From Schizosaccharomyces osmophilus (taxonomy: Eukaryota): DNA of 64,000 bases. The notes below the pieces were generated by a model. It was not told the DNA's origin and did not search any database. It saw only the letters and a program-made list of their open reading frames with translations. The stretch lies in contig NC_079238.1 in the NCBI RefSeq assembly GCF_027921745.1, forward strand, positions 1 through 64,000, written 5' to 3'. A program made the translations under genes and the position numbers. Below, one piece after another: positions 1 to 45,043 of this stretch; position 1 is the stretch's first letter; every line of letters begins with the position of its first letter.

Positions 1-266
1 GTAACCCAAGTAACCCAAGTAACCCAAGTGTAACCCAAGTAACCCAAGTAACCCAAGTAACCCAAGTGTAACCCAAGTGTAACCCAAGTGTAACCCAAGT
101 GTAACCCAAGTAACCCAAGTGTAACCCAAGTAACCCAAGTAACCCAAGTGTAACCCAAGTAACCCAAGTAACCCAAGTAACCCAAGTAACCCAAGTAACC
201 CAAGTGTAACCCAAGTAACCCAAGTAACCCAAGTAACCCAAGAGTAACCCAAGTAACCCAAGTAAC
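1..266 (-). repeat. Telomeric tract (C-rich strand on +): mixed GTAACCCAA (9 bp) and GTGTAACCCAA (11 bp) units, with one GAGTAACCCAA variant near the proximal end
   Basis: Tandem array starts at base 1; reverse complement is GGGTTACTT / GGGTTACACTT. Confidence 0.98.
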
Positions 267-589: not shown

Positions 590-1400
590 TTTTACTTTGT
601 TTATCTTTTCATTTGTTCACCTCTTCACCTCCTTACTTCTTCAACCATGTGTTACTGTTCATTACTTCTCCTCTGCAATTGTTCAATGATGTGTTCATTT
701 GTTCATCTCTTCGATTGTTCAACGATGTGTTACTGTTCATTACTTCTCCTCTGCAATTGTTCAATGATGTGTTCATTTGTTCATCTCTTCGACTGTTCAA
801 CAATGTGTTACTGTTCAACAATGTTTTAGTTTGTTCATGTTTTATCTCTTCATTTGTTCACCTGTTCACCTCCTTACTTCTTCAACCATGTGTTATGTTA
901 CTCTTCACCTCCTTACCTCTTCAACCATGTGTAATTGTTCAACCTTTTATCTCTTCCCTTCTACAATTGTCAACGATTTGTTATTGTTCAACGATGCTTT
1001 AGTTTGTTCATGTATTGGGTTACCTTCAACACTTCACCTCTTCAACTGTGTGTTGGTGTACCTCCAATTTCTCTACTGTTCATTTGTTCATCTCTTCGAC
1101 TGTTCAGCGATTTCTTATCATTCAAAGATGTTTTAGTTTGTTCATGTGTTATGTTACTGTTCGCCTCTTCAACTGTTCAACGATATGTTAATGTGTTAGT
1201 GTACCTCCTATTTCTCTACTGTTCATTTGTTCAATTGTTCACCTGTTCAACGATGTGTTACTGTTCATCTCTTCCCCTCTACAATTGTCAACGATTTGTT
1301 ATTGTTCAACAATGTTTTAGTTTGTTCATGTGTTATGTCACTGTTCACCGGTTCGCCTCTTCAACGGTTGTTACTGTGCTGCTGTGTTAGTGTACCTTCA
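590..1400. repeat. Telomere-associated degenerate minisatellite built on TGTTCA, with a 78-bp tandem unit starting at 647, 725 and 803 (third copy partial)
   Basis: Repeated ATGTGTTACTGTTCA starts 78 bp apart; 26-aa periodicity in the spurious ORFs. Confidence 0.85.
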
Positions 1401-4200: not shown

Positions 4201-4375
4201 TGCGTTGAATCCAAGTGCTAAACGCTTTCTTGTTGTTTGTGCTTCATTCTGTAAGTATTTATGTGCTGCTTTTTATTTTTTCATTCTGTATTTACTGTTG
4301 TCTTTGTGTAATGGTTACCTCATCCCCCAACTAAACGAAAACGAGCGACAGCCTTGCAAACCCAAACCGTTACCG

Positions 4376-4483
4376 GGGTTACTTGGGTTAAGGGTATACA
4401 GGTTGTCTGGGTTAAGGGTATACGGGTTCTCTGGGTTAAGGGTATGTGAGCGAAAGTGTTATGGGTTACGGGTTACCGGTTAA
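4376..4483 (+). repeat. Internal telomere-like repeats in inverted orientation (G-rich strand on +)
   Basis: Perfect GGGTTACTTGGGTTA at 4376-4390, three TGGGTTAAGGGTAT units, then GGGTTACGGGTTAC. Confidence 0.8.
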
Positions 4484-6401: not shown

Positions 6402-6506
6402 CACTTGGGTATTACTTACTATTTACTACTTAGACTTATTACTTAGTACTTAGTACTTGGGACTTACTACTTTTTACTTAGTACTTGGGACTTCGACTTA
6501 GACTTC
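6402..6506. repeat. Degenerate ACTT/TACTTAG/ACTTGGG repeat patch, possibly telomere-derived
   Basis: Repeated TACTTAG, GACTT and CTTGGG words. Confidence 0.5.
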
Positions 6507-7071: not shown

Positions 7072-9933
7072 TCAGAGAGCATCAAGAATATCAGTCACTA
7101 GAAAGTAAACAACATTCACAAATTCAGATGTCGTGCCACTCGGCTGACAAATAAAGTTAAAAAAATTTTGATCGTCCAAATTTCCCTCTAGAAATTGATT
7201 AGCAATCGCTTGCTTATAATTCCCATTGCTCCAAGCAAAAAAAGCAACTTTGCCAAGTTTTCCCCTAGCCCACGATTTGCACTTTGACTTGTACGGAAAA
7301 TCCTCTTCTAAATGTTCAAATGTCGTTAATCCGCAATACATACAAGCTCCCGAAAACTGAAACTTATACGGACACTTGAATCTCGTGTGATCAGTTTGTC
7401 GACATCGAAAGCATCTTTTCACCTCTAAAGGGCATGTATTCTTGTGTATTACAGAGCGGTTTCCACCTTGTTCAACAAAACATGATATGCATTCTTTTCG
7501 AAATTCTCTGAAAAACTTTTCCAACAAACTTGTCTTTGACAAACTGGCCATCCAATGCCTTTTAACACCTTCGCACCGGTTATCATATCCCAATTGATTC
7601 TTCTTGTGCAAATTATAATCATCACCATCGCCATAGCTATCGCCATCGCCATCGACATCGACATCGCCATGAGTTTCTAGAAACGAACGTTTTCTAGCAT
7701 CAGTGCTTTTCGATAGTGTTGGGGATGAGAAAAAAGTTGTTTCAGAATGACCTGATTTGCTGCTCGAAACATCTGTCTTGCTTGTCGAACTTACTGGGGT
7801 GACTCGACCATAACTACCACCACTTTCTTCGTTATCCTTTGTGATTGTGCAATTCATCAATTTTGAATCAGCAGACAAAGCATCTGAAGAACAAGCGCTT
7901 TGCGGTGTGGGTGGTGATCCACTGGCAAGCTTCTTCTTCCGTGTCGGTGTCAATGTCTCCTTGTCTTTGTCTTTGTCTTTGACCTTGTCCTTCTCAACAG
8001 AGAGCAGCTCTTTTTCTCTTTCATCCAGTAATCCCGGGTTACATCGAGAACAAACGACATAGTCAGGCAAAAAGTCACAACCACTGCATTGATCATCCAT
8101 CTCACTTGCTAAAAACGACCGAACGCACATTGATTTGTCCTCAACGAAGTTTTTCATCCTAACGTCAATATACGCTGACGTAGACACTTCATACTTGCTG
8201 TAAAACATAGAAGCAATCGAAAACTTGCCATCCCTTCCAGCACGACCTGTTTCCTGAGCAAAATCCATAGACGTAGACGGTGACCCATAGTGAATTACAA
8301 GACGCACTTCCGGGTAATCGATACCAAGCCCAAAAGCTTTCGTGGCCACCATAATACGATTGTTGTTGCTTTCCAAGTCTGTAAACATATTAAAACATGT
8401 ATGTCGCTCTTCCTCTGCCATATCACCTGTATACGAAACGGCACAAGTTTCGATCCTTTCTGCAGAATTTATTTTGACCTGCAATTCCTCCACGTTTTTC
8501 TTTGTCCGGCAAAATAGAATTGCTCGGCCATTTCCCTCAAAAACTCCAGCTCTTATCATCAAGTCACGGAGATCGTTTAAAAACTGTTCCTTGTCAAGCT
8601 GCTTTAATAAATAATGAATGTTTTTTCGAGCCGTTAGTGTTTTGATTCCTTGAAAGTGCGTACAAAACGTCTCGCTAGCACGAGCCTCCAGTTCACGGGG
8701 AAACGTAGCGCTAAGAAGAATGATTGGCGCCGCAATTCCAGACAACCTTGACGCTTTCCACAAAACGTGCCTCCAACCGCCATCTGTCAACAAACTATGC
8801 GCCTCATCAATAACAATGCGGGCCAGCCGTCCATTGGCCGCAAGACTCTCAAAAAAACACAGTGCTTCGTTCGTCAATGCCGAGTCATAAGAAAGAATAA
8901 ACATGTCCGGTAGATTATATGAATCTGGCGGAGTCCGCTTGTATACTTTCCAGTCATTAGAACAAACCAGAGTTTTCGCTTCGTTTGCTCTTCGTGCCAT
9001 ATCCTGCCGTAGAGAGATGAGAGGTACCAGAACGACGGTAATAAGTCCAGTCCGCTTTTGCTTTTCAATAAAGGCGGGCAATAAAAAAGATAGAGATTTC
9101 CCTGAACCTGTTGCAAGTACCGAGATCAAGTTGACACGTTTCAAATACGAAAAATAGACAGACTGAAGTTGCTCCATAGAACGAAACTTTGATGGCTTAC
9201 CATAAAACTTTGATAAAGCATACACGCAAAGTCGAATCGTCGATTGAGATGGACACATAGATGGTGATGGTGATGCATACAAACTTGGGCTACTTTGTAT
9301 TTGCTGTTCTTCGGTCCCAGTCTCAGTCGTTGTCCTGGTCCTTGGTACAACAGCAACCGCTGCTTGGTTCGTGTTCAAATTCAAATCCAGCTCTTGACAT
9401 TGTTTTCCTTCCCCACGACGAGTCTCTTTTTCGACGACATCGGTGTTTCCATAAGTGTCGCCGTCCTGCGTCTCAGTTTGTGCTTGTGTCTGCACTTCTT
9501 TCGCTTTCCATACCGCCAAACGTTGTTGCATCGTTTTTATCTCGTCAGCTTTTTCCAATAATTGGTCAATGTTGTTTTGTGGCTTGCTGGTCTCAATTAT
9601 GAATCCACCGCTACTATTGTCTTTGATTTCTAACAGCTCTTGCCATCGAAAACTTGCCCGAAAAAAGTTTGTGAAAAAATCCGCCGGCAAGTTATTCAAA
9701 TTGTCGGAAGTGCGACCATAAATTAGCAAAGCCGTACTTCGTGCATGACCAGCTTGCATGTCAAAGAATGAATCTCTTACTCCTTCTTCTTCAATATTTC
9801 TTTCCTTAAAGTAGTGGGAAATATGACGATAATTCCGAAATACCAATGACTTTTGAATATTCTCATAAGTCACTCTTGGGAAAATCCGATAGGGAGCATC
9901 CGTTGTCAATAGCTGACCTCCTACAACAAACAT
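7072..9933 (-). CDS. tlh1: Telomere-linked RecQ-family helicase, intact C-terminal 953 aa (SF2 helicase, RQC Zn cluster, C-terminal Zn knuckles)
   Basis: ATGSGKS (motif I), VIDEAH (II), SAT (III), ATKAFGLGID (V), QETGRAGRDG (VI), Cys-rich RQC, CFRCRQTDHTRFKC knuckle; transcribed toward the telomere. Confidence 0.93.
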   Translation of the reverse strand: MFVVGGQLLTTDAPYRIFPRVTYENIQKSLVFRNYRHISHYFKERNIEEEGVRDSFFDMQAGHARSTALLIYGRTSDNLNNLPADFFTNFFRASFRWQELLEIKDNSSGGFIIETSKPQNNIDQLLEKADEIKTMQQRLAVWKAKEVQTQAQTETQDGDTYGNTDVVEKETRRGEGKQCQELDLNLNTNQAAVAVVPRTRTTTETGTEEQQIQSSPSLYASPSPSMCPSQSTIRLCVYALSKFYGKPSKFRSMEQLQSVYFSYLKRVNLISVLATGSGKSLSFLLPAFIEKQKRTGLITVVLVPLISLRQDMARRANEAKTLVCSNDWKVYKRTPPDSYNLPDMFILSYDSALTNEALCFFESLAANGRLARIVIDEAHSLLTDGGWRHVLWKASRLSGIAAPIILLSATFPRELEARASETFCTHFQGIKTLTARKNIHYLLKQLDKEQFLNDLRDLMIRAGVFEGNGRAILFCRTKKNVEELQVKINSAERIETCAVSYTGDMAEEERHTCFNMFTDLESNNNRIMVATKAFGLGIDYPEVRLVIHYGSPSTSMDFAQETGRAGRDGKFSIASMFYSKYEVSTSAYIDVRMKNFVEDKSMCVRSFLASEMDDQCSGCDFLPDYVVCSRCNPGLLDEREKELLSVEKDKVKDKDKDKETLTPTRKKKLASGSPPTPQSACSSDALSADSKLMNCTITKDNEESGGSYGRVTPVSSTSKTDVSSSKSGHSETTFFSSPTLSKSTDARKRSFLETHGDVDVDGDGDSYGDGDDYNLHKKNQLGYDNRCEGVKRHWMASLSKTSLLEKFFREFRKECISCFVEQGGNRSVIHKNTCPLEVKRCFRCRQTDHTRFKCPYKFQFSGACMYCGLTTFEHLEEDFPYKSKCKSWARGKLGKVAFFAWSNGNYKQAIANQFLEGNLDDQNFFNFICQPSGTTSEFVNVVYFLVTDILDAL

Positions 9934-10960
9934 TGCCTTGTCATATATGGAGGCCGCTTTGGCGTCGTGAGTTTCTACATAACTTAACTCAACAAAGACT
10001 CAAATGGTCGCACTAATGCATAGTATCGTATTGCAAGTATGGAAAGAGGCTCGGGCAGAAACCTTGCAATGGGCTTTTCAGCAAACTTCATGTTTCGTGT
10101 CTTGTCATACCTGGTGTAAATCATCAGTCTTCCCAGTAGAACGTACAGCTCTCTAGCCTTAAAATTTGTATTCTTAAAATACCAGTAGCCCATTTCTAGC
10201 TTCGCCAATGCACGAATAGATCGAATCGGGATCATGTTGAAACAATACCAAAGTTGGGCTCAAGCCAATAAGCGAATGAGCATATCCTTCTCTTCTTTTC
10301 AGCAAATGAAGCATTCGGTTGGTTTCACTTAAATAATCAAACAAATTACTACTCCCTGGCGTAATATATCGAAAAACTTGGGAATATGCAATTGAATCTG
10401 ATTTGTGAAAATCTGGAATGGAAGACACGTCGACCAATTTTTCTTCTACCAACCGTCTAAACTCTGACGCGGCAACTAGACGACAACTGTAAATTCATCG
10501 AGCAAGATGTGGACGAATCGACAATCGCCGAAAAAACTTTCTATCCGTCTTCTCCAGCAACCGGAGCACAGTTTACTTTGAAAAATAGACGATTCCTCTG
10601 AATGATTCCTTTTTTCGTGATAATGACTGCAGCAGTACACGCCGTTCGCATTCTTTCAAGCTCTTTTCTTCCGTGATAATGCCTTATATGATGACAAAAG
10701 GTGTCGAGATTTCCATGCACATAACCGTTCCCGCTCTCTATGCAGGGTGTACACTCGTATACTTCTTTAGGAGAAGAATACTCTGCCAATACCTCTTGCG
10801 TAGTCGAAAAACTCCAATTATTTAGCTCTGTAGCCGAATCCAAATTCATTTCTGATTTATGCCTCACTATAGCTGTCGAGAAAGAAATTGTACAATTCAA
10901 ATATAATAGTGATTGCACAATGATACATGCACCCCATTAGAACATGCAGCTCTTTACATA
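9934..10960 (-). pseudogene. Fragmented 5' half of the tlh gene (frameshifts, stops, internal deletions)
   Basis: Segments YECTPC..FCHHIRHYH, IYSCRLVAASEF.., RELYVLLGRLMIYTRYDKTRNMKFAEKPI resemble the S. pombe Tlh N-terminal half (from memory) but lie in different frames; 5-bp duplication TAACT at 9980-9989. Confidence 0.85.
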
Positions 10961-11062: not shown

Positions 11063-11444
11063 TGTCATAACCGGTATACGATATTACTGTATTTTGATAC
11101 AACAATCATATTGTATTATCAAAAAATGTTGTTACAAAAGTAAAAATTCATTTCTGCGATTGAAAATCTAAAAAATCTAGAACTAAGGTTATTAAGGAAC
11201 TTAGTAATCCTATCAGGGTATTTATATACCTCTAGTTGAAAAATCCAATCTTCAGATTGGAAGATTTGACTGATCTAGCTAAATAAATTGTTTATACAAC
11301 TTGCTTAGTGACTCAGATCCCTGGAACTATTACTATTCTTTTCTAGTAGTAAAAAGCTAACAATGTTAGTATTATTCTTGTTTATTTGTATATTTGTTTC
11401 CACTGAAAACTTATTCTCTTAACAACGAGACTTCGCCTGTGACA
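11063..11444 (-). mobile_element. Solo LTR (Tf-like retrotransposon), no matching TSD
   Basis: TGTCATAA...TGTGACA termini; similar to other copies in the window; strand inferred from the TATATAAATA orientation; flanks ATAAT / CTGTT. Confidence 0.88.
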
Positions 11445-13754: not shown

Positions 13755-14186
13755 TTAATTAATGGCGATTTGCTTCTTGGAGCGAGATTGCTCTACCTTG
13801 GGCAGAAGAATACTCAAAATGCCATTGGAAAATTGAGCTTCAATACGATCGGAATCGATCCTGCTGGGGATAGAGATAGTTCGAGAGAAGGAACCAAAGC
13901 GACGCTCAGACCATCTGTGGTTTCCTCGATCTCCTTCGCTCTTGCGCTCATTCACGGATTTACCAGAAATGGTAAGCTTTCCTTCGTCGTAATGAACTTG
14001 AACGTCCTGCTTTTTGACACCAGGAAGTTCTACATCAACAGCAACCGTGTCTTTGCCTTCGTGAACATCAATGGCGGGTGACAAATCAACAGCACGATCC
14101 TGGCGTTGAACGCGAGGAGAATAACTCAAAAAGTCGGAAAGACCGTCTTGAAATGGGTATAAATCGAAGAAAGGTTGAAGAGACAT
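13755..14186 (-). CDS. hsp16: Small heat-shock protein (Hsp20 family), copy 1
   Basis: MSLQPFF start, VELPGVKK, ERRFGSFSRTI, NGIL alpha-crystallin motifs. Confidence 0.95.
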   Translation of the reverse strand: MSLQPFFDLYPFQDGLSDFLSYSPRVQRQDRAVDLSPAIDVHEGKDTVAVDVELPGVKKQDVQVHYDEGKLTISGKSVNERKSEGDRGNHRWSERRFGSFSRTISIPSRIDSDRIEAQFSNGILSILLPKVEQSRSKKQIAIN

Positions 14187-17983: not shown

Positions 17984-18415
17984 TCAGTGAATGGCGATTT
18001 GCTTCTTGGAGCGAGATTCCTCAATCTTGGGCAAGACAACGCTTAAAATACCGTGGTTGAATTGAGCTTCAATGCGATCGGCATCTACCTTGTTTGGAAT
18101 GGTGATTGTTCGGGAGAAGGAACCAAAGCGACGTTCCGACCATCTTTGGTTTCCCTTGTCGCTTTCACTCTTGCGCTCATTCACAGATTCACCAGAAATG
18201 GTAAGTTTTCCTTCGTCGTAATGAACTTGTACGTCTTGCTTTTTGACACCAGGAAGTTCTACATCAACAGCAACCGTGTCTTTGCCTTCGTGAACATCAA
18301 TGGCAGGTGACAAATCGCCAACACGATTCTGGCGTTGGACACGAGGAGAATAACTCAAAAAGTCAGAAAGACCGTCTTGAAATGGGTATAAATCGAAGAA
18401 AGGTTGAAGAGACAT
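17984..18415 (-). CDS. hsp16: Small heat-shock protein (Hsp20 family), copy 2
   Basis: Paralog of 13755-14186 with the same motifs. Confidence 0.95.
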   Translation of the reverse strand: MSLQPFFDLYPFQDGLSDFLSYSPRVQRQNRVGDLSPAIDVHEGKDTVAVDVELPGVKKQDVQVHYDEGKLTISGESVNERKSESDKGNQRWSERRFGSFSRTITIPNKVDADRIEAQFNHGILSVVLPKIEESRSKKQIAIH

Positions 18416-23798: not shown

Positions 23799-24200
23799 TG
23801 TCATAAATGGTATACGATATTACTATTATTTTGATACAATAATCACATTGTATTATCAAATGCGTTATTACATAAAGTAAATGTTTATTTTTGCGATTGA
23901 AAACTTTGAAAATCTAAAATTAAGGCTGAAAAGAAGCTTACTAATTCTAGAAAGATATATATGTATACCTCTAATTGAGAGCTCAACTCTTCAGATAGGA
24001 AGATTTGACTGATCTAGCTAAATAGATTGTTCATAACACTTTGTTAGTGAATCAGATCCCTGGGAGCTATTGCTATTCAATTCAAGTAGTACCAAAAGCA
24101 TCCAATTGAAAGTCAAACATACAATTTACTGAATTGTTATTACATACATCTTTTCCTCTGAATACTTATTCTCACAACGAGTGAGACGTCGCCTGTGACA
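23799..24200 (-). mobile_element. Solo LTR with a near-perfect TSD (GTCAT/GTTAT), abutting a truncated LTR end at 23753-23790
   Basis: TGTCATAA...TGTGACA; same family as 11063 and 30912. Confidence 0.88.
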
Positions 24201-24326: not shown

Positions 24327-24959
24327 CTACTCTTTTAGTATGTTGGTAAACATCTCTCCATCTTCCAATTCAGTTTTGTTGTGATCATTACGGAAACGCC
24401 ATAATTCTAAGTCACGGGCACTGTCTTTACATTCTTTATTCTTGATAAAGTTTCCACTTCTTATTAACCCTAATTTCGTGGTATAAGCCAGCCAGCAGTC
24501 GCAGATTAGACAAACAGCATCAGAAATAGCGGTCAGGGGCCCCTCGGTTTGACTTGGTTCTTCGCCAGAGCAGTTTCCTATATCAGTTGGCTCTAATATA
24601 GGGAACCCATATATTCTAAGATTATGTTTAGCAGAATTCTCCAAGTCACTTATGATATCTTTGTTGATGCCTGCTTCAGTAGGCCAAACGCTAACATGGT
24701 TGTTTTCTCCTTCAATTCGATAATTCCACTTGTTTGCCTGGTCACCTAACATGTCAATCACCGTACTAATAATAGCCCAAGTAACGGCTTGTATATCTAT
24801 GTGAGCATCGACTGCATCTCGTGATTTCTTATTTGGCAAGATATAATTGTCATAATCCCTGTTGTAATTCGAAATGGTATTATAATCTTCAATATCCATA
24901 GTGGGAACTGGTAAGCAAAGCAAAGGATGGGTGAAATTCGCTGATCGATCGTTGTCCAT
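24327..24959 (-). CDS. Intact intronless 210-aa protein; candidate homolog of the killer-plasmid (zymocin-type, pGKL1 ORF3-like) immunity protein
   Basis: Globular composition, ATG start, (TA)n just upstream; TWAIISTV-x14-I-x8-VWP...LRIYGF spacing matches the recalled ORF3 sequence (not searched). Confidence 0.6.
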   Translation of the reverse strand: MDNDRSANFTHPLLCLPVPTMDIEDYNTISNYNRDYDNYILPNKKSRDAVDAHIDIQAVTWAIISTVIDMLGDQANKWNYRIEGENNHVSVWPTEAGINKDIISDLENSAKHNLRIYGFPILEPTDIGNCSGEEPSQTEGPLTAISDAVCLICDCWLAYTTKLGLIRSGNFIKNKECKDSARDLELWRFRNDHNKTELEDGEMFTNILKE

Positions 24960-25489
24960 CGCGTGCAGCTATATATATATATATATATATAATATACATA
25001 GATGACTCACGAACCGTTATGACGCAAAGGCTATTTGAAACTCGGTAGTTCGGTCTTCAAAGCAATATCGAATTCAATCTCGCCTGTCTGATGTTCGCAA
25101 CCTGTAGCCCGTCAAATTTTATATTTCTGAAACAGGTTGAGTTCATCTAGAAAAGGAGTGTCAAAAGAATTGGCTCAGTTACTCGATGAGAACGGTTGGT
25201 CCACAAGTTTTGGATTACTTGCTTTCAAGAAGAGAGCCCATAATATTCCATATAACGGTTTAGTTTAGTCTTCTTTATTTTATATTTGTGTTTGAAGGTG
25301 TCAATTGTACATCATATTCAGACATGAATGAATGGTGGTGGTACTGTTTTATTCCTTGGTGGGCTTCTATAGTCTTAAAGTAGAGTTTGGCAATGTAGAC
25401 TAGAAAAGAAGGATTAAAATCACATTAAAACAATCAATTTCTTTTAAAATAAATACAATTTCATGACTAGGATTCATCAAAGATAGGAT

Positions 25490-36263: not shown

Positions 36264-39200
36264 ATGAAACTTTCTTGCTCATTCGTTTACGTATATGCGA
36301 TATTTTTGATTTGCTGCTTTTTCTTGCCAGCAACTGCTACCATTTTTACTCCTTATTCCAACTGCCCAGACTTGTTTTTTGATCATAGAAGTTTTACAGC
36401 TAATATTCCTTCTGCAGACATCACTCTAAGCAATGTAATGTATATTGGGAATGACCGATACCAAGTTACTATCAATTTCGAAGGTAACGAATTTATGTCA
36501 AAGAAATCCCTATCAGAATTGAAGCTATTCCTGAACAGCGAAACAATTGTTCTATATTCCAATATTTTGAATGTCGACAAGATTTTTGATACCTCAAAAT
36601 GGAGTACTACTGTTGTTGTCGCCGGTGATCGCAACGGCAATCAAGTATGCATGCCCCCTTTCCAAATTCAGTATGACTGGTGTTCGGGTGGCATACTAAA
36701 CCTAGGTGAATGCTTGTTATGGAAATTTCAAAAGTTTTACGACCATATAACCGGATGCTCGGTCGATAATTATGGAAACGCTCACTCAGACTCACCTACT
36801 TATTGCTGGACAGATAACGATATTACCTCCAGTTCAGCGATAAATAAAATCTCCACTCAAACGACGACCGAAAGTACTGGCAAGCATAATACGGCAAGAA
36901 AAACTTCCAGTCCCTCCAATAACATTGCTTCATCTACTGTGCAGAGTGGTTCTCCTTCACCTACTATTCCAGCTTTCGCTTCATTCCAGAGCAGTGAGAA
37001 ACAAATCAGCCACATACCTTCCTCGGTCCCACTTAGCAGCATAGGTTCAAATGGTATTGCTAGTTCAGCAGGAATTCGCAAGCCAGGATCAAGTGGTAGT
37101 TTTGTTTCTCATGTTCCACTTAGCAGCATAGGTCCCAACGTTATTGCTAGTTCAGCTGTAGTTAGCACTTCAGGATCTAGTAGTATTGCTGCTTCTTCGA
37201 TGCCTTTAAAAAGCTCAGCATCCATCGCAAAAGCTACTTCGGGGATTCCAATCAACAACTCGGGTCCTTCTGGTAGTATTACTTCATTTTCAGTGTTGGC
37301 AAGTTCAAAGCCAATTAAGGATGCTACTTCTTTAGATCTAATTACCAACTCAAGGTTTAACGGTAATGCCACTTTCTCGGTCCCTATTAGCAGCTCATGT
37401 TCCAGTGGTAGCCTTACGTCCTCAGTATCAATGAACAGCTCAGGCTTCAGCAGTAATGCTACTTGGTCATTTTCAGTTAGAGGCAGCTCAGGAATAGTTG
37501 GTAGTGTTGCTCCCACTTCTGCGTTGACAATATCAACGCCAATTTCGAATACTACATCGCCGATTCCTACTAGCACTACAGGATTCACCGATACTGTTGC
37601 TTCCTCGGTTCCAATTAGCAACAGTTCGGTATCCACTAGTTTCACTGTTTCCTCGATTCCTACCAGTACTTCAGGATTCAACAGTAGTGTTGCTTTCTCG
37701 ACCCCTATAAGCACTACAGGATTCAGTGGAAGTTTTGTTTCTCAGGTTTAAATTAGTAACAGCTCAATACCCACCAGTATTGCTGCTTCTACAGCCCCTA
37801 TAAGTAACGTAGGTCCCAACGGTAAAGCTGCTTCTTCGGTTCCTATTAACAGCTCAGCGTTCGTTGACAGAGTTACTTCCCCTTCCGCGTTGACAAATAC
37901 AACATCAGTCTCGAATGTTACATCGTCGGTTCCAACTAGCACTTCCGGATTCAGTGATACTTTTGTTTCTCAGGCTCCAACCAGCAACGTTTCGGTATCC
38001 ATTAGTGCTACTTTCTCAATACCAATGAACAGCTCAGGCTTCAGCAGTAATGCTACTTGGTCAGATTCAGATAGAGGCAGCTCAGGAACAGTTGGTAGCG
38101 TTGCTCCCACTTCTGCGTTGACAATATCAACGCCAATTTCGAATACTACATCGCCGATTCCTACTAGCACTACAGGATTCACCGATACTGTTGCTTCCTC
38201 GGTTCCAATTAGCAACAGTTCGGTATCCACTAGTTTTACTGTTTCCTCGATTCCTACCAGTACTTCAAGATTCAACAGTAGTGTTGCTTTCTCGACCCCT
38301 ACTAGCACTACAGGAATCAAGAATAGTGCAGCTACCTCAACTCTTACTAGCCGCAATGGTGCAACTACTTCTAACGTTTCAATGAGGTACTCAGGTTCTA
38401 GTAGCATAAGTTTCTCTTCTTTGTTGGCGAGATCAACGCCGATTTTGAATGATACTTCTTCAGCTGCAATGATCAGTTCAGGATCAAGCGTTGTTGCTGC
38501 GTCCTCGATCCGGCTGAGCAGTCCAGTTTCTAGAGATACTGTTGCTTCCCCGACTCGTGCTAACAGCTCAGCACTCCGTAGCAGAGTTACTTCCTCTTCT
38601 TTGATGACAAATTCAGCGACAGTCGCAAATAATGTTTCTAGTAACGTAGGTCCCAACGGTAAAGCTGCTTCTTCGGTTCCTATTAACAGCTCAGCATTCG
38701 TTGACAGAGCTACTTCCTCTTCCGCGTTGACAAATACAACATCAGTCTCGAATGTTACATCGTCGGTTCCAACTAGTACTACAGGATTCACCGATACTGT
38801 TGCTTCCTCGGTCCCAATTAGCAACAGTTCGGTATCCACTAGTTTTACTGTTCCCTTGATTCCTACCAGTACTTCAGGATTCAACAGTAGTGTTGCTTTC
38901 TCGACCCCTATAAGCACTACAGGATTCAGTGGAAGTTTTGTTTCTCAGGTTCCAATTAGTAACAGCTCAATACCCACCAGTATTGCTGCTTCTACAGCCC
39001 CTATCAGCAGCTTAGATTCCAACGGTAGTGTTACTAGATCTGTTCCAACTAGTAGCACAGGACCCAACGTTAGCACCTTAGGTTTCACTAGCAGTTTTGC
39101 TTCCTCGGTCCCTACTACCTTTTCAGGATTCAATGGCAATTTTATTTCTCAGATTCCAACTAGCAACAGCTCAATATCCACCAGTATTGCTGCTTCTACA

Positions 39201-41039
39201 GCCCCTATTAGTAACGTAGGTCCCAACGGTAAAGCTGCTTCTTCGGTTCCTATTAACAGCTCAGCGTTCGTTGACAGAGTTACTTCCTCTTCTGCGTTGA
39301 GAAATACAACATCAGTCTCGAATGTTACATCGTCGGTTCCAACTAGCACTTCCGGATTCAGTGATACTTTTGTTTCTCAGGCTCCAACCAGCAACGTTTC
39401 GGTATCCATTAGTGCTACTTTCTCAATACCAATGAACAGCTCAGGCTTCAGCAGTAATGCTACTTGGTCAGATTCAGATAGAGGCAGCTCAGGAACAGTT
39501 GGTAGCGTTGCTCCCACTTCTGCGTTGACAATATCAACGCCAATTTCGAATACTACATCGCCGATTCCTACTAGCACTACAGGATTCACCGATACTGTTG
39601 CTTCCTCGGTTCCAATTAGCAACAGTTCGGTATCCACTAGTTTTACTGTTTCCTCGATTCCTACCAGTACTTCAGGATTCAACAGTAGTGTTGCTTTCTC
39701 GACCCCTATAAGCACTAGAAAATCCGGTGGCAGTTTTGTTACTCAGGCCCCAACTAGCAACATATCTGGATTCACTAATGTCACTGCTTTTTCAGCTCCT
39801 ATTAGTAGCTTAGCTCTCAACGGTAGTGCTACATCCTCAATACCTATTACCAGCTCAGGATTCACCGGTACTGTTGCTTTCACGGTTCCGATTAACAACA
39901 GTTCGGTATCCATTAGTGCTACTTCCTCAATACCAATATATAGATCAGGATTCAGCAGTACTGTTGCTTCCCCGGCTCCTATTAACAGCTCGAGATCCAC
40001 TAGTTTGATTGCTCAATCAGCTCCAGTTAGTAGCTTAGGATCCAATGGTAATAGTACTTCAACTCCAATTAGCATTTCAAAACTTAGTGGCAGTTTTGCT
40101 TCCTCGGTTCCTACTACCTTTTCAGGGTTCAATGGTAATGCCACTTTCTCGGTCCCTATTAGCAGCTCATGTTCCAGTGGTAGCCTTACGTCTTCAGTAT
40201 CAATGAACAGCTCAGGCTTCAGCAGTAATGCTACTTGGTCAATTTCAGTTAGAGGCAGCTCAGGAATAGTTGGTAGTGTTGCTCCCACTTCTGCGATGAC
40301 AAGATCAACGCCAATTTCGAATACTACATCGCCGATTCCTACTAGCACTACAGGATTCACCGATACTGTTGCTTCCTCGGCTCCAATTAGCAACAGTTCG
40401 GTATCCACTAGTTTTACTGTTTCCTCGATTCCTACCAGTACTTCAGGATTCAACAGTAGTGTTGCTTTCTTAACTCCTATAAGCACTACAGGATTCAGTG
40501 GCTATTTTGTTTCTCAGGTTCCAAATAGCGACAGCTCGGTATCCACCAGTATTGCCGCTTCATCAGCTTCAACTAATAACTCAGGTTTCCGTCGTATTAC
40601 TAGTTCTTTCAAGCCAGTAGGTACTTCAACTGTCAGTGATGGTGATTCAACTTCTACTCTGTTAATTACTCCGAAAGAAGGGGTTGCAGATAGCTTCGTT
40701 AGTTTCCCTAATGTTACATATTCGAGTGCTAGTTCTTTTCTTCCTTGGCCAAAACTTTCAGCTAATTTCTCCGACACTAGGTACGGGAACTCTTCCGCTA
40801 ATGGTTTCGTGACGGCTTCGACTCCTATTGCTTCTAGCAGGATTCTTAGTGCTACTGTAGTTTCCAGTTTATCTAGCAATTCACATTGTAATGCTAGTAA
40901 TACTTCAAAGCTTAGTTCACAAGCCGCTAGCGCTAGTAGCCAATCGTCGATTATTGATTCTGTTGCATCAGCAGGATCAAAAGTTTCTTCTTTTTTGGTC
41001 CTCTTTGTTTCCTTTGTTAGTCTCTGGATACTTGCTTGA
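36264..41039 (+). pseudogene. Flo11-domain adhesin with Ser/Thr repeat stalk and GPI-like tail, interrupted by one in-frame TAA at 37749-37751
   Basis: Signal peptide; YQVTINFEG..LSELKL..CMPPFQIQYDW Flo11-like domain; ORFs 36264-37751 and 37890-41039 are in the same frame; hydrophobic C-terminus. Confidence 0.85.
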
Positions 41040-42314: not shown

Positions 42315-43127
42315 ATGGGTGAAGAATCACAAATGCAAGGTGAAAATTTGTTAGCCCACGATGAGTATTTGTATACGAATGAATATGGTATCCCTCCTCC
42401 AAGACAGGAGAACGTTACGGAATTAAGTCGCTATTTAAATGATTTAAGAAATGCCCTCAATGAGAAAAATTATTTTTTCCAGAGGCATGAGTTGGAACAA
42501 AGCCTTGAACGAATTGCTTTACGAAACCGAGAAATGAATGTTCAAAACGAAGAGTATGAAAGAACTGTCATTCATTTTACAAATAATATGCGTGCACTTG
42601 AACAATTACGTGCGATCGAAAGCCGCTTGAACCACTACAGAAATGAAGAGGAAACAAATAACAGTCAACCTCCACAATGGTTTGTCAATTTTTTAAATGA
42701 TCCTAATGGTGGGTTCCTCTCTCTGAAACAGGGAGTAGGTTCCCTAAGGCAGGAAGTAGGTTCCATAAGGCAGGAAGTGGTCTTAATGGAACAACGACAA
42801 AATTTGCGATTCGATGGAATAGATCAAAAGCTGAATAAACAGGAGTATCGATACTATAGATTGCACAACATTCAGATGAGGTCTTTAGGGAAATCGATTG
42901 ATATTGTTCCATATTTAAATGGTCAATTACCGGACATTGATTTACCGCGAATTTATTCAATTGAAGATATAGAGAGGTTAACAAAAGACCAATGTACTAG
43001 GTATCTCAACGGTTACGGAATTCGATTTGGGCCGAACGAGACGATAAAGTTGAAAGAGCGTATTCGTGATGCCGTTGGGTTACACTCTGTTACAGATGCC
43101 GAGTTTCGTTTTTCTGGGTTTCACTAG
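42315..43127 (+). CDS. Mug135/Tdk1-like protein (coiled-coil stalk plus Mug135-C/DUF1773-like domain), copy A
   Basis: PPQWF motif, heptad repeats, VPYLNG..LPRIYSIEDIERLT..C..YL.GYGI......LKERIRDAVG. Confidence 0.85.
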   Translation: MGEESQMQGENLLAHDEYLYTNEYGIPPPRQENVTELSRYLNDLRNALNEKNYFFQRHELEQSLERIALRNREMNVQNEEYERTVIHFTNNMRALEQLRAIESRLNHYRNEEETNNSQPPQWFVNFLNDPNGGFLSLKQGVGSLRQEVGSIRQEVVLMEQRQNLRFDGIDQKLNKQEYRYYRLHNIQMRSLGKSIDIVPYLNGQLPDIDLPRIYSIEDIERLTKDQCTRYLNGYGIRFGPNETIKLKERIRDAVGLHSVTDAEFRFSGFH

Positions 43128-44263: not shown

Positions 44264-45043
44264 ATGAACCAAGATTTGTTTTCAAACCCATTTGGAATTG
44301 CTCCACCGTCTAACGATTCTTTTGCAGCGCTCTCAAAGTTTACATATGAATTCGCAGAGGCGATTCCCCAAGATAGATTTGATTCATTCAAAAGTAAACT
44401 GGCGAGCCTTCACAAAGCAGTTACTTCTAAACTAGAAGGAGGAGAGACTCGTCCACGAGATGACATGTCTGAAGTTCGACGGATACTTCAGGAGCTTAGG
44501 GAAGGGCAATCCGAGCTTAGGGAAGGGCAATCCGAGCTTAGGGAAGGACAAACCAATCTCAGAGAAGAGATGATCCAAGGAATATCGAGGTTGGAAGGAC
44601 GAGTTGACTCTTTTGCTAACGATTTCCGGTCAAACAACGCTGAAACTTTTTCACGCATGAATCGAAATGAAAACAGAATTAACATGACAAGATCTTCATC
44701 GCAGAGATCTGAAAACATTATTAACAGAGTTGCGGCCAAGAACACAAAACCAATTCCGTTTGTTAATGGACAAGAACCTCCAAATGACTTGCCTGAGTTA
44801 CTAAATATCTCCGACGTTGACAGTTTGAATTTAAACCAATTGAAAACGTACGTGAAGGGTTATGACCAGAGCTTTGATGAGAATGAGCCTCAAGCATCTC
44901 TTAAAAGAAAGCTTGCTGATTATTCTGGATTTATCACACCACAAGAAAGTTTGTATGAGTTTTCTGAAGGCAATGAAACCCTTCGAGATGTAGGGAATAT
45001 AAATAGTACACCAAGCCTAAGGCGGACGTCTCGTCGTCATTGA
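44264..45043 (+). CDS. Diverged Mug135/Tdk1-like protein with 21-bp ELREGQS repeats, copy B
   Basis: NPFGIAPP (cf. NEYGIPPP), coiled coil, IPFVNG..P..LPEL.NISDVD.L....LK.YV.GY. Confidence 0.8.
   Translation: MNQDLFSNPFGIAPPSNDSFAALSKFTYEFAEAIPQDRFDSFKSKLASLHKAVTSKLEGGETRPRDDMSEVRRILQELREGQSELREGQSELREGQTNLREEMIQGISRLEGRVDSFANDFRSNNAETFSRMNRNENRINMTRSSSQRSENIINRVAAKNTKPIPFVNGQEPPNDLPELLNISDVDSLNLNQLKTYVKGYDQSFDENEPQASLKRKLADYSGFITPQESLYEFSEGNETLRDVGNINSTPSLRRTSRRH

What the first reader, a model, noticed from the sequence alone, without database searches (positions are those of the whole stretch)
9715..10200. Tyrosine-recombinase-like catalytic motifs fused to the telomere-linked RecQ helicase
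Seen upstream of the helicase core, in order: YDKTR (Lys), FRNYRH, and QAGHARSTALLIYG. Established: tyrosine recombinases use R...K...HxxRH...GH-x8-Y. The GH-to-Y spacing here fits that box. Inference: tlh is a recombinase-helicase-Zn-knuckle fusion, so the subtelomeric block may be a domesticated or selfish YR-type element that spreads between chromosome ends rather than a plain host helicase.
Basis: partly seen in the sequence, partly recalled or inferred. Interest (0 to 1): 0.75.

Follow-up and report, generated by a model that had tools for sequence, protein, structure and literature searches.

The report
Recombinase hidden in telomere-linked helicase
This is a broken copy of the fission-yeast telomere-linked helicase gene, and in intact relatives the long-unexplained stretch before the helicase keeps five of the six active-site residues of a tyrosine recombinase and is predicted to have its fold, so these chromosome-end genes likely encode a DNA cut-and-rejoin enzyme and may be self-spreading elements.

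Summary
The motifs are there, in a broken tlh gene 7-11 kb from a Schizosaccharomyces telomere. Loose motifs of this kind arise by chance in 8% of random sequences, but relatives settle it. In 152 homologues (median identity 24%) the four most conserved of 242 columns are Lys, Arg, Tyr, Arg of the tyrosine-recombinase set; 131 of 137 keep R-K-R-H-Y. A model of the S. octosporus domain matches XerA at Z 12.2 (2.8 Å, 154 residues); the top 32 rows are all recombinase/topoisomerase-IB-fold proteins. The region upstream resembles a core-binding domain (weaker). The His of HxxR is not kept. This copy cannot be a working recombinase: a deletion removes the first Arg and a frameshift cuts off the Lys, while a 953-codon helicase frame survives. 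Fold and residues are well supported; activity and mobility are inferred, and no element ends or circles were found. Ten literature searches found no paper making the link. The scan found this before on other DNA (44 notes, at least 17 genomes); here it reaches S. pombe Tlh1, where it is directly testable.

The parts
1..266 (.). Telomere repeat tract (9- and 11-bp units, C-rich strand on +)
   Evidence: such mixed units are described for S. osmophilus (passages)
600..1380 (.). Telomere-associated degenerate tandem repeats
7072..9999 (-). Surviving open frame of tlh (975 codons stop to stop; 953 aa from the first Met): second half of the recombinase domain, RecQ helicase, Cys/His-rich tail; reads toward the telomere
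7372..7413 (-). C-x2-C-x4-H-x4-C zinc knuckle
   Evidence: sequence; Pfam zf-CCHC E 0.38, under cut-off
8227..9144 (-). RecQ-type helicase core (DEAD + Helicase_C), motifs intact
   Evidence: E 8e-15, 3e-19; family profile hits RecQ structures first
9715..9756 (-). QAGH-x8-Y box: His 9747-9745, predicted nucleophile Tyr 9720-9718 (Tlh1 H1031, Y1040)
9823..9840 (-). FRNYRH: second catalytic Arg 9828-9826 (Tlh1 R1004); HxxR His position occupied by Arg
9979..9988 (.). 5-nt tandem duplication that shifts the frame inside the recombinase domain
   Evidence: the 5 bases are left out in a contig of a related organism (table 4, run X5)
9990..10196 (-). Out-of-frame piece with the beta-sheet part of the domain and catalytic Lys 10103-10101 (Tlh1 K914)
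10196..10198 (.). Deletion junction: about 165 codons (Tlh1 ~717-882) are missing, including the first catalytic Arg R880
   Evidence: a contig of a related organism leaves the window here and reads on into the GQPAR motif (table 7, run X6)
10183..10494 (-). Remnant matching Tlh1 613-716 (end of the predicted core-binding region)
10553..10861 (-). Remnant matching Tlh1 180-295 (N-terminal Cys/His region); Tlh1 296-612 has no match in the window
11063..11444 (.). Solo-LTR-like repeat (TGTCA...TGACA) just upstream of the remnant; Tlh1 residues 1-179 have no match in the window

Best explanation
The finding is the broken remnant of a tlh gene whose family keeps the Arg, Lys, Arg, His and Tyr of a tyrosine recombinase in a domain predicted to have that fold, fused ahead of a RecQ helicase, and intact Tlh proteins likely cut and rejoin DNA to copy their own telomere-terminal unit onto chromosome ends. 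Shown: residues, order, conservation, fusion, and the lesions of this copy. Predicted: the catalytic fold and an upstream core-binding domain. Inferred: the Tyr attacks a phosphodiester at a site in or near the unit or the telomere repeat, strand exchange makes a Holliday-type joint, and the fused helicase migrates it or opens the DNA for break-induced copying out to the end, which gives the same-orientation, sometimes tandem, repeat-flanked units seen in fungi. In fission yeasts the element looks old and vertically kept, and may be partly domesticated.
For: Conservation: K914 150/151, R880 149/150, Y1040 138/139, R1004 141/143 are the top 4 of 242 columns, H1031 135/140 is 8th, median column 29%; median pairwise identity 24%; 131 of 137 fully covered proteins keep all five. 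Fold: pLDDT 87.8; XerA Z 12.2, 2.8 Å, 154 residues, first unrelated row Z 3.3; 34 of 35 Foldseek rows shown are recombinase-family chains; viral library rows mostly integrases. Upstream region: 8 of the top 20 rows are N-terminal domains of recombinase-family proteins. Fusion: helicase follows in 56 of 70 proteins with 250 or more residues after the domain. Family size: 1046 clusters at 50% identity. Selection: 24 of 33 listed differences to related organisms are synonymous. Context from papers: Fusarium TLH units are flanked by telomere repeats on both sides and form arrays; S. octosporus chr1L has two units with internal repeats; TLH regions are dispensable at Magnaporthe ends; full-length copies at all 24 Colletotrichum ends, fragments elsewhere.
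Against: No activity assay exists here. The HxxR His is present in only 5 of 144 rows. No Pfam recombinase model hit any of the proteins scanned, phmmer against PDB found nothing, profile-to-single-sequence alignment to lambda Int, Cre and TelN failed, and no Foldseek row reached E 0.001. The Tyr segment is poorly modelled (pLDDT under 50 at 199-207), so active-site geometry is not shown. The core-binding match is middling (best Z 6.5) and Foldseek missed it. No element boundary was found: no telomere-repeat array on the centromere side of the gene. Schizosaccharomyces domains form one clade (100/98), which fits long vertical inheritance as well as a host role. Ordinary subtelomeric recombination already explains spread between ends; one paper proposes that tlh mainly serves to make heterochromatin RNA, and a role in survival without telomerase is reported.
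Confidence: 0.58

Rival explanations
1. Domesticated host enzyme: the recombinase domain is active but works for the cell, for example in rebuilding or unfusing chromosome ends during telomere crisis, and the gene spreads only by ordinary subtelomeric recombination.
For: Intact residues in S. pombe, S. octosporus and S. japonicus and a single Schizosaccharomyces clade; purifying selection; reported induction and benefit in telomere crisis; S. pombe copies keep open frames.
Against: Frequent pseudogenes (this copy; 7 of 11 in Magnaporthe), dispensable units, 1046 divergent clusters, repeat-flanked arrays. The crisis benefit was reported for a C-terminal segment, which need not involve this domain.
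Confidence: 0.25
2. Not a recombinase but a single-strand nicking-closing enzyme (topoisomerase IB-like swivel for the fused helicase) or a hairpin-forming telomere resolvase.
For: Same superfamily and chemistry; HxxR His is replaced, as in topoisomerase IB and protelomerases (recalled); bacterial topoisomerase IB scores Z 8.1; telomeric location.
Against: Xer/Cre rank above topoisomerases (Z 12.2-9.2 against 8.1 or less) and protelomerases score only 3.5-3.9; upstream domain resembles Xer/integrase core-binding domains; these chromosome ends carry telomerase-type repeats.
Confidence: 0.13
3. Catalytically dead recombinase fold used only to bind DNA (like Ndc10), or chance motifs.
For: Ndc10 and QRICH1 structures appear among the fold hits; an NDC10_II cluster is a weak Atlas hit (0.87); loose motifs are common by chance.
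Against: The catalytic positions are the most invariant columns at 24% identity, which a dead fold would not keep.
Confidence: 0.04

Closest known systems
Telomere-linked RecQ helicases (S. pombe Tlh1/2, Magnaporthe TLH1, Fusarium TLH)
   Same: It is one: 47-60% identity to S. pombe Tlh1 over the matched pieces of 87 or more residues from position 613 on, subtelomeric, reading toward the telomere, with the pre-helicase 'TLH domain' that papers leave without function.
   Different: This copy is deleted and frameshifted upstream of the helicase. The recombinase reading of the domain was not found in the papers searched.
Xer/Cre/lambda-integrase tyrosine recombinases (XerA 4a8e, 5hxy; Cre; XerD)
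   Same: Predicted catalytic fold (Z 12.2-9.2), R-K-x-R-H-Y order, His-to-Tyr spacing of 9 as in lambda Int H333/Y342 and Cre W315/Y324; likely core-binding domain upstream.
   Different: 10-18% identity; first His of RKHRH not kept; about 170 extra residues between core-binding and catalytic parts; fused to zinc-binding regions and a RecQ helicase; no known site.
Eukaryotic tyrosine-recombinase elements: Starship captains (DUF3435), Cryptons
   Same: Fungal recombinase recognised mainly by structure; variation at the His position is tolerated in an active captain.
   Different: No DUF3435 or other recombinase Pfam hit; helicase fusion; telomere-terminal position; no direct-repeat ends shown.
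S. cerevisiae Y' elements
   Same: Subtelomeric helicase-coding unit, in arrays, induced in telomere crisis (arrays and circles recalled).
   Different: Y' protein was not examined here; whether it has this domain is untested.
Protelomerases (TelK, TelA) and topoisomerase IB
   Same: Same superfamily and phosphotyrosine chemistry.
   Different: Lower fold scores (3.5-3.9 and 5.0-8.1).

Membership tests
Tyrosine recombinase superfamily | Lambda-integrase catalytic fold | tested here: met
   Predicted model of the S. octosporus domain: XerA Z 12.2, rmsd 2.8 Å, 154 aligned; Foldseek prob 1.00, E 1.5e-3
Tyrosine recombinase superfamily | Tyr nucleophile and Arg, Lys, Arg, His/Trp conserved in order | tested here: met
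   131 of 137; top-ranked columns. Residue-to-residue match is inferred from order, spacing and alignment end points, not from a printed superposition
Tyrosine recombinase superfamily | His of the HxxR box (RKHRH pentad) | tested here: not met
   His in 5 of 144 rows; Ser, Arg, Asn, Gln commonest. Known active groups also vary here, so this bars only the canonical pentad
Tyrosine recombinase superfamily | N-terminal core-binding domain | tested here: inconclusive
   8 of top 20 rows are such domains, best Z 6.5, 3.0 Å, 102 aligned; Foldseek no match
Tyrosine recombinase superfamily | Covalent phosphotyrosine intermediate and strand exchange | not testable with these tools
   needs biochemistry
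Working recombinase (this copy) | All catalytic residues in one reading frame | tested here: not met
   first Arg deleted, Lys out of frame
TLH gene family | RecQ core, TLH domain ahead of it, Cys/His motifs, subtelomeric position | tested here: met
Crypton/Starship-type mobile element | Defined ends, target site, empty-site alleles, circles | tested here: inconclusive
   No boundary seen in the window; no whole genome held; only contigs could be laid
Starship captain (DUF3435) | Pfam DUF3435 match | tested here: not met
   no hit in 6, 30 and 80 proteins scanned
Protelomerase | Closest fold match and hairpin-end context | tested here: inconclusive
   Z 3.5-3.9, far below Xer/Cre; chromosome end has simple repeats

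The most novel reading that the evidence does not exclude
TLH units are an undescribed class of eukaryotic DNA element: a single recombinase-helicase protein that joins its unit to chromosomes and copies it out to the end, so that what have been called telomere-linked helicase genes for 25 years, including S. pombe tlh1-4, are telomere-specialist mobile elements, and their induction in telomere crisis is mobilisation.
Probability: 0.45. Interest if true: 0.88.

Novelty: new variant of a known kind. Interest (0 to 1): 0.72.

Why it matters
The function of Tlh proteins is an open question. A predicted recombinase active site with named residues in S. pombe Tlh1 (R880, K914, R1004, H1031, Y1040) turns it into a point-mutant experiment in a model organism, in a gene widely used as a heterochromatin reporter. 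It would also recast a family of over 1000 divergent clusters, invisible to Pfam, as recombinases, and offer a cause for the turnover of fungal chromosome ends.

Tried and rejected
Sequence-level detection failed: no recombinase family in Pfam scans; phmmer of the domain against PDB gave 0 hits; the family profile hit only helicases in the 60 of 187 rows shown; hhalign to single lambda Int, Cre and TelN sequences gave probabilities under 1%. I tried to build a diverse recombinase profile, but the scans returned near-copies of Cre and lambda Int, so no profile-profile test was made. Genomic context of distant relatives could not be fetched: the alignment had no searchable stretch, a single-protein scan gave 2 spurious 23-residue matches of 458 candidates, a longer-protein search gave 0 of 706. 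No whole genome is held. No RNA holder listed. Foldseek found nothing for the upstream region. A strict motif pattern gave 0 of 20000 random hits but was drawn from the alignment, so I do not count it. The repeat upstream of tlh was considered as an element end and rejected as a solo-LTR-like repeat with a second copy at 23799-24200. Double-hairpin elements are mitochondrial and irrelevant. No perfect inverted repeat with arms of 9 or more bases and a gap up to 10 was found in three stretches flanking the gene. No complex prediction was run.
Full report
Setting. The window starts with 266 bases of telomere repeat in 9- and 11-base units. Such mixed units are described for Schizosaccharomyces osmophilus (10.1101/2022.12.06.519325, passages), and a protein record named for that species is 97% identical to the long frame. 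The gene lies on the minus strand from about 10861 to 7072 and reads toward the telomere. Its best long match is S. pombe Tlh1 (P0001, 1887 aa; E 3e-49 for residues 1-140 of the frame, 1 of 74 candidates).

Observation. YDKTR (10109-10095), FRNYRH (9840-9823) and QAGHARSTALLIYG (9756-9715) are present in that order; YDKTR is in another frame. A loose K..R..H-x8-Y pattern appears in 1582 of 20000 random 250-mers, so the motifs alone prove little.

State of this copy. Against Tlh1 the window holds residues 180-295, 613-716, about 883-951 and 951-1666, in three frames. A contig of a related organism leaves the window at 10197 and reads on into the GQPAR motif (run X6), so a deletion of about 165 codons removed the first catalytic Arg. 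A 5-base duplication near 9980, left out in a contig of run X5, shifts the frame between the Lys and the remaining residues. A solo-LTR-like repeat lies at 11063-11444. What survives is a 953-aa frame with half the domain, an intact helicase core and a Cys/His tail. This copy cannot make a working recombinase; it could make a helicase. Runs X1 and X2, which may be the source sample, hold a second, diverged tlh-like copy whose state is unknown.

Conservation. The pre-helicase 644 residues of Tlh1 hit 1046 clusters at E up to 0.001; the best 150 were returned. With P0001 and P0003 these make 152 proteins, median pairwise identity 24%. Of 242 well-filled columns the four most conserved are K914 (150 of 151), R880 (149 of 150), Y1040 (138 of 139) and R1004 (141 of 143); H1031 (135 of 140) is eighth; the median column is 29%. 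Of 137 proteins that cover all five positions 131 have R, K, R, H, Y; 15 fragments were left out of that count. His-to-Tyr spacing is 9, as in lambda Int and Cre translated from their records. The first His of the RKHRH pentad (PMC8138268, passages) is not kept: 5 of 144. Variation there is known in active enzymes (PMC10104507 and PMC8138268, passages). A helicase follows in 56 of 70 proteins that have 250 or more residues after the domain, and in 64 of all 152; the 30 long proteins I scanned all have DEAD and Helicase_C, 19 also an N-terminal PF12013 match (its older name DUF3505 is recalled). Of 20 hits looked up, named ones were from four Schizosaccharomyces species, two basidiomycetes and one bacterial bin on a 6-kb contig; the rest bore no name. 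The named TLHs of Magnaporthe, Fusarium and Ustilago were not identified in my set. That this domain is the 'TLH domain' rests on its place and size, about 250 residues ahead of the helicase. Of 33 differences to related organisms that I took from the cut table (40 of 81 shown), 24 are synonymous.

Fold. The S. octosporus domain (243 aa, 97-row alignment) modelled at pLDDT 87.8, with the Tyr segment under 50. Foldseek on PDB: XerA first (E 1.5e-3, probability 1.00); 34 of 35 rows shown are recombinase-family chains; none reached E 0.001. The viral library gave mostly integrases. The wide structural search of 48161 chains gave XerA Z 12.2 (2.8 Å, 154 aligned), XerA 10.9, Cre 9.6, XerD 9.3, XerH 9.3; topoisomerases IB 5.0-8.1; protelomerases 3.5-3.9; the first unrelated row is 33rd at Z 3.3 (that SroF, MrpR, Ndc10 and QRICH1 are recombinase-fold derivatives is recalled). 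Counting back from the aligned ends puts the model's His on Cre W315 and lambda H333, an inference that assumes no gaps there. The 408 residues upstream, from S. japonicus (pLDDT 82.3), matched N-terminal domains of recombinase-family proteins in 8 of the top 20 rows, best Z 6.5; this is middling for a helical model and Foldseek found nothing. The Atlas gave unnamed eukaryotic clusters at 0.93-0.95 and weak leads to NDC10_II and Phage_integrase at 0.87. Sequence methods did not see the link.

How it likely works. Shown: a conserved R-K-x-R-H-Y set fused ahead of a RecQ core. Predicted: catalytic and core-binding folds. Inferred from established recombinase chemistry: site binding, Tyr-linked nicking and strand exchange. 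Inferred further: the helicase moves the junction or opens DNA for copying to the chromosome end, so the protein propagates its own terminal unit. Papers fit this: Fusarium units of 6-13 kb are flanked by telomere repeats on both sides and form arrays (10.1101/2024.02.27.582403, sections 14 and 15); S. octosporus chr1L has two units with internal repeats (10.1101/309815, passages); Magnaporthe ends do without them and only 4 of 11 copies are whole (PMC1635262, passages); Colletotrichum has full copies at all 24 ends and fragments elsewhere (PMC5576322, passages). Against: I found no boundary in the window; the four Schizosaccharomyces domains form one clade in a 36-row tree (100/98; rows chosen by hand from 152); and host roles are proposed, in heterochromatin RNA (PMC7840980, passages) and telomere crisis. 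I put the fold at about 0.95, activity of intact copies at about 0.8, and self-propagation at about 0.55-0.6.

Novelty. Ten searches listed no paper that links TLH genes to a recombinase; word look-ups for 'recombinase' in three papers on TLH regions gave 0. Passages of three further papers were irrelevant, as was a look-up in a fourth. The library lacks most subscription journals; Rehmeyer 2009, Mandell 2005, Repbase and all supplements were not seen and may bear on priority. The scan itself noted this before: 44 findings in at least 17 genomes. I formed and tested the reading independently of them; one (e1-9929486) reports a single precise end among sister copies, which I could not test because this copy's upstream end is lost.

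Verdict. Observation confirmed; recombinase domain supported for the family; this copy dead for that function; mobility unproven. New variant of a known kind, interest 0.72.

Noticed in passing
window 10072-10126: A second, otherwise diverged tlh-like copy in runs X1/X2 (and X5/X6) is nearly identical to the window over this short stretch around the catalytic Lys; could be protein constraint, gene conversion or a DNA site.
   Followed up: partly
window 4362-4480 and 6403-6505: Degenerate telomere-like repeats in the orientation opposite to the terminal tract.
   Followed up: partly
window 11063-11444 and 23799-24200: Two copies of a solo-LTR-like repeat with TGTCA...TGACA ends.
   Followed up: yes
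window 13755-14186 and 17984-18412: Two Hsp20 (hsp16-like) paralogues, 86% identical over 300 bases.
   Followed up: partly
window 42315-43127, 44264-45043, 52122-52955: Three Mug135-like genes, two nearly identical, with a 21-base repeat of varying copy number.
   Followed up: partly
window 36264-41039: Ser/Thr-rich adhesin-like gene in two consecutive frames, possibly split.
   Followed up: no
window 24327-24968: 213-codon open frame next to the second LTR-like repeat, no Pfam match.
   Followed up: partly
proteins P0061, P0157: TLH-type proteins labelled as from bacterial bins, on 5-6 kb contigs; likely eukaryotic contigs misbinned.
   Followed up: no
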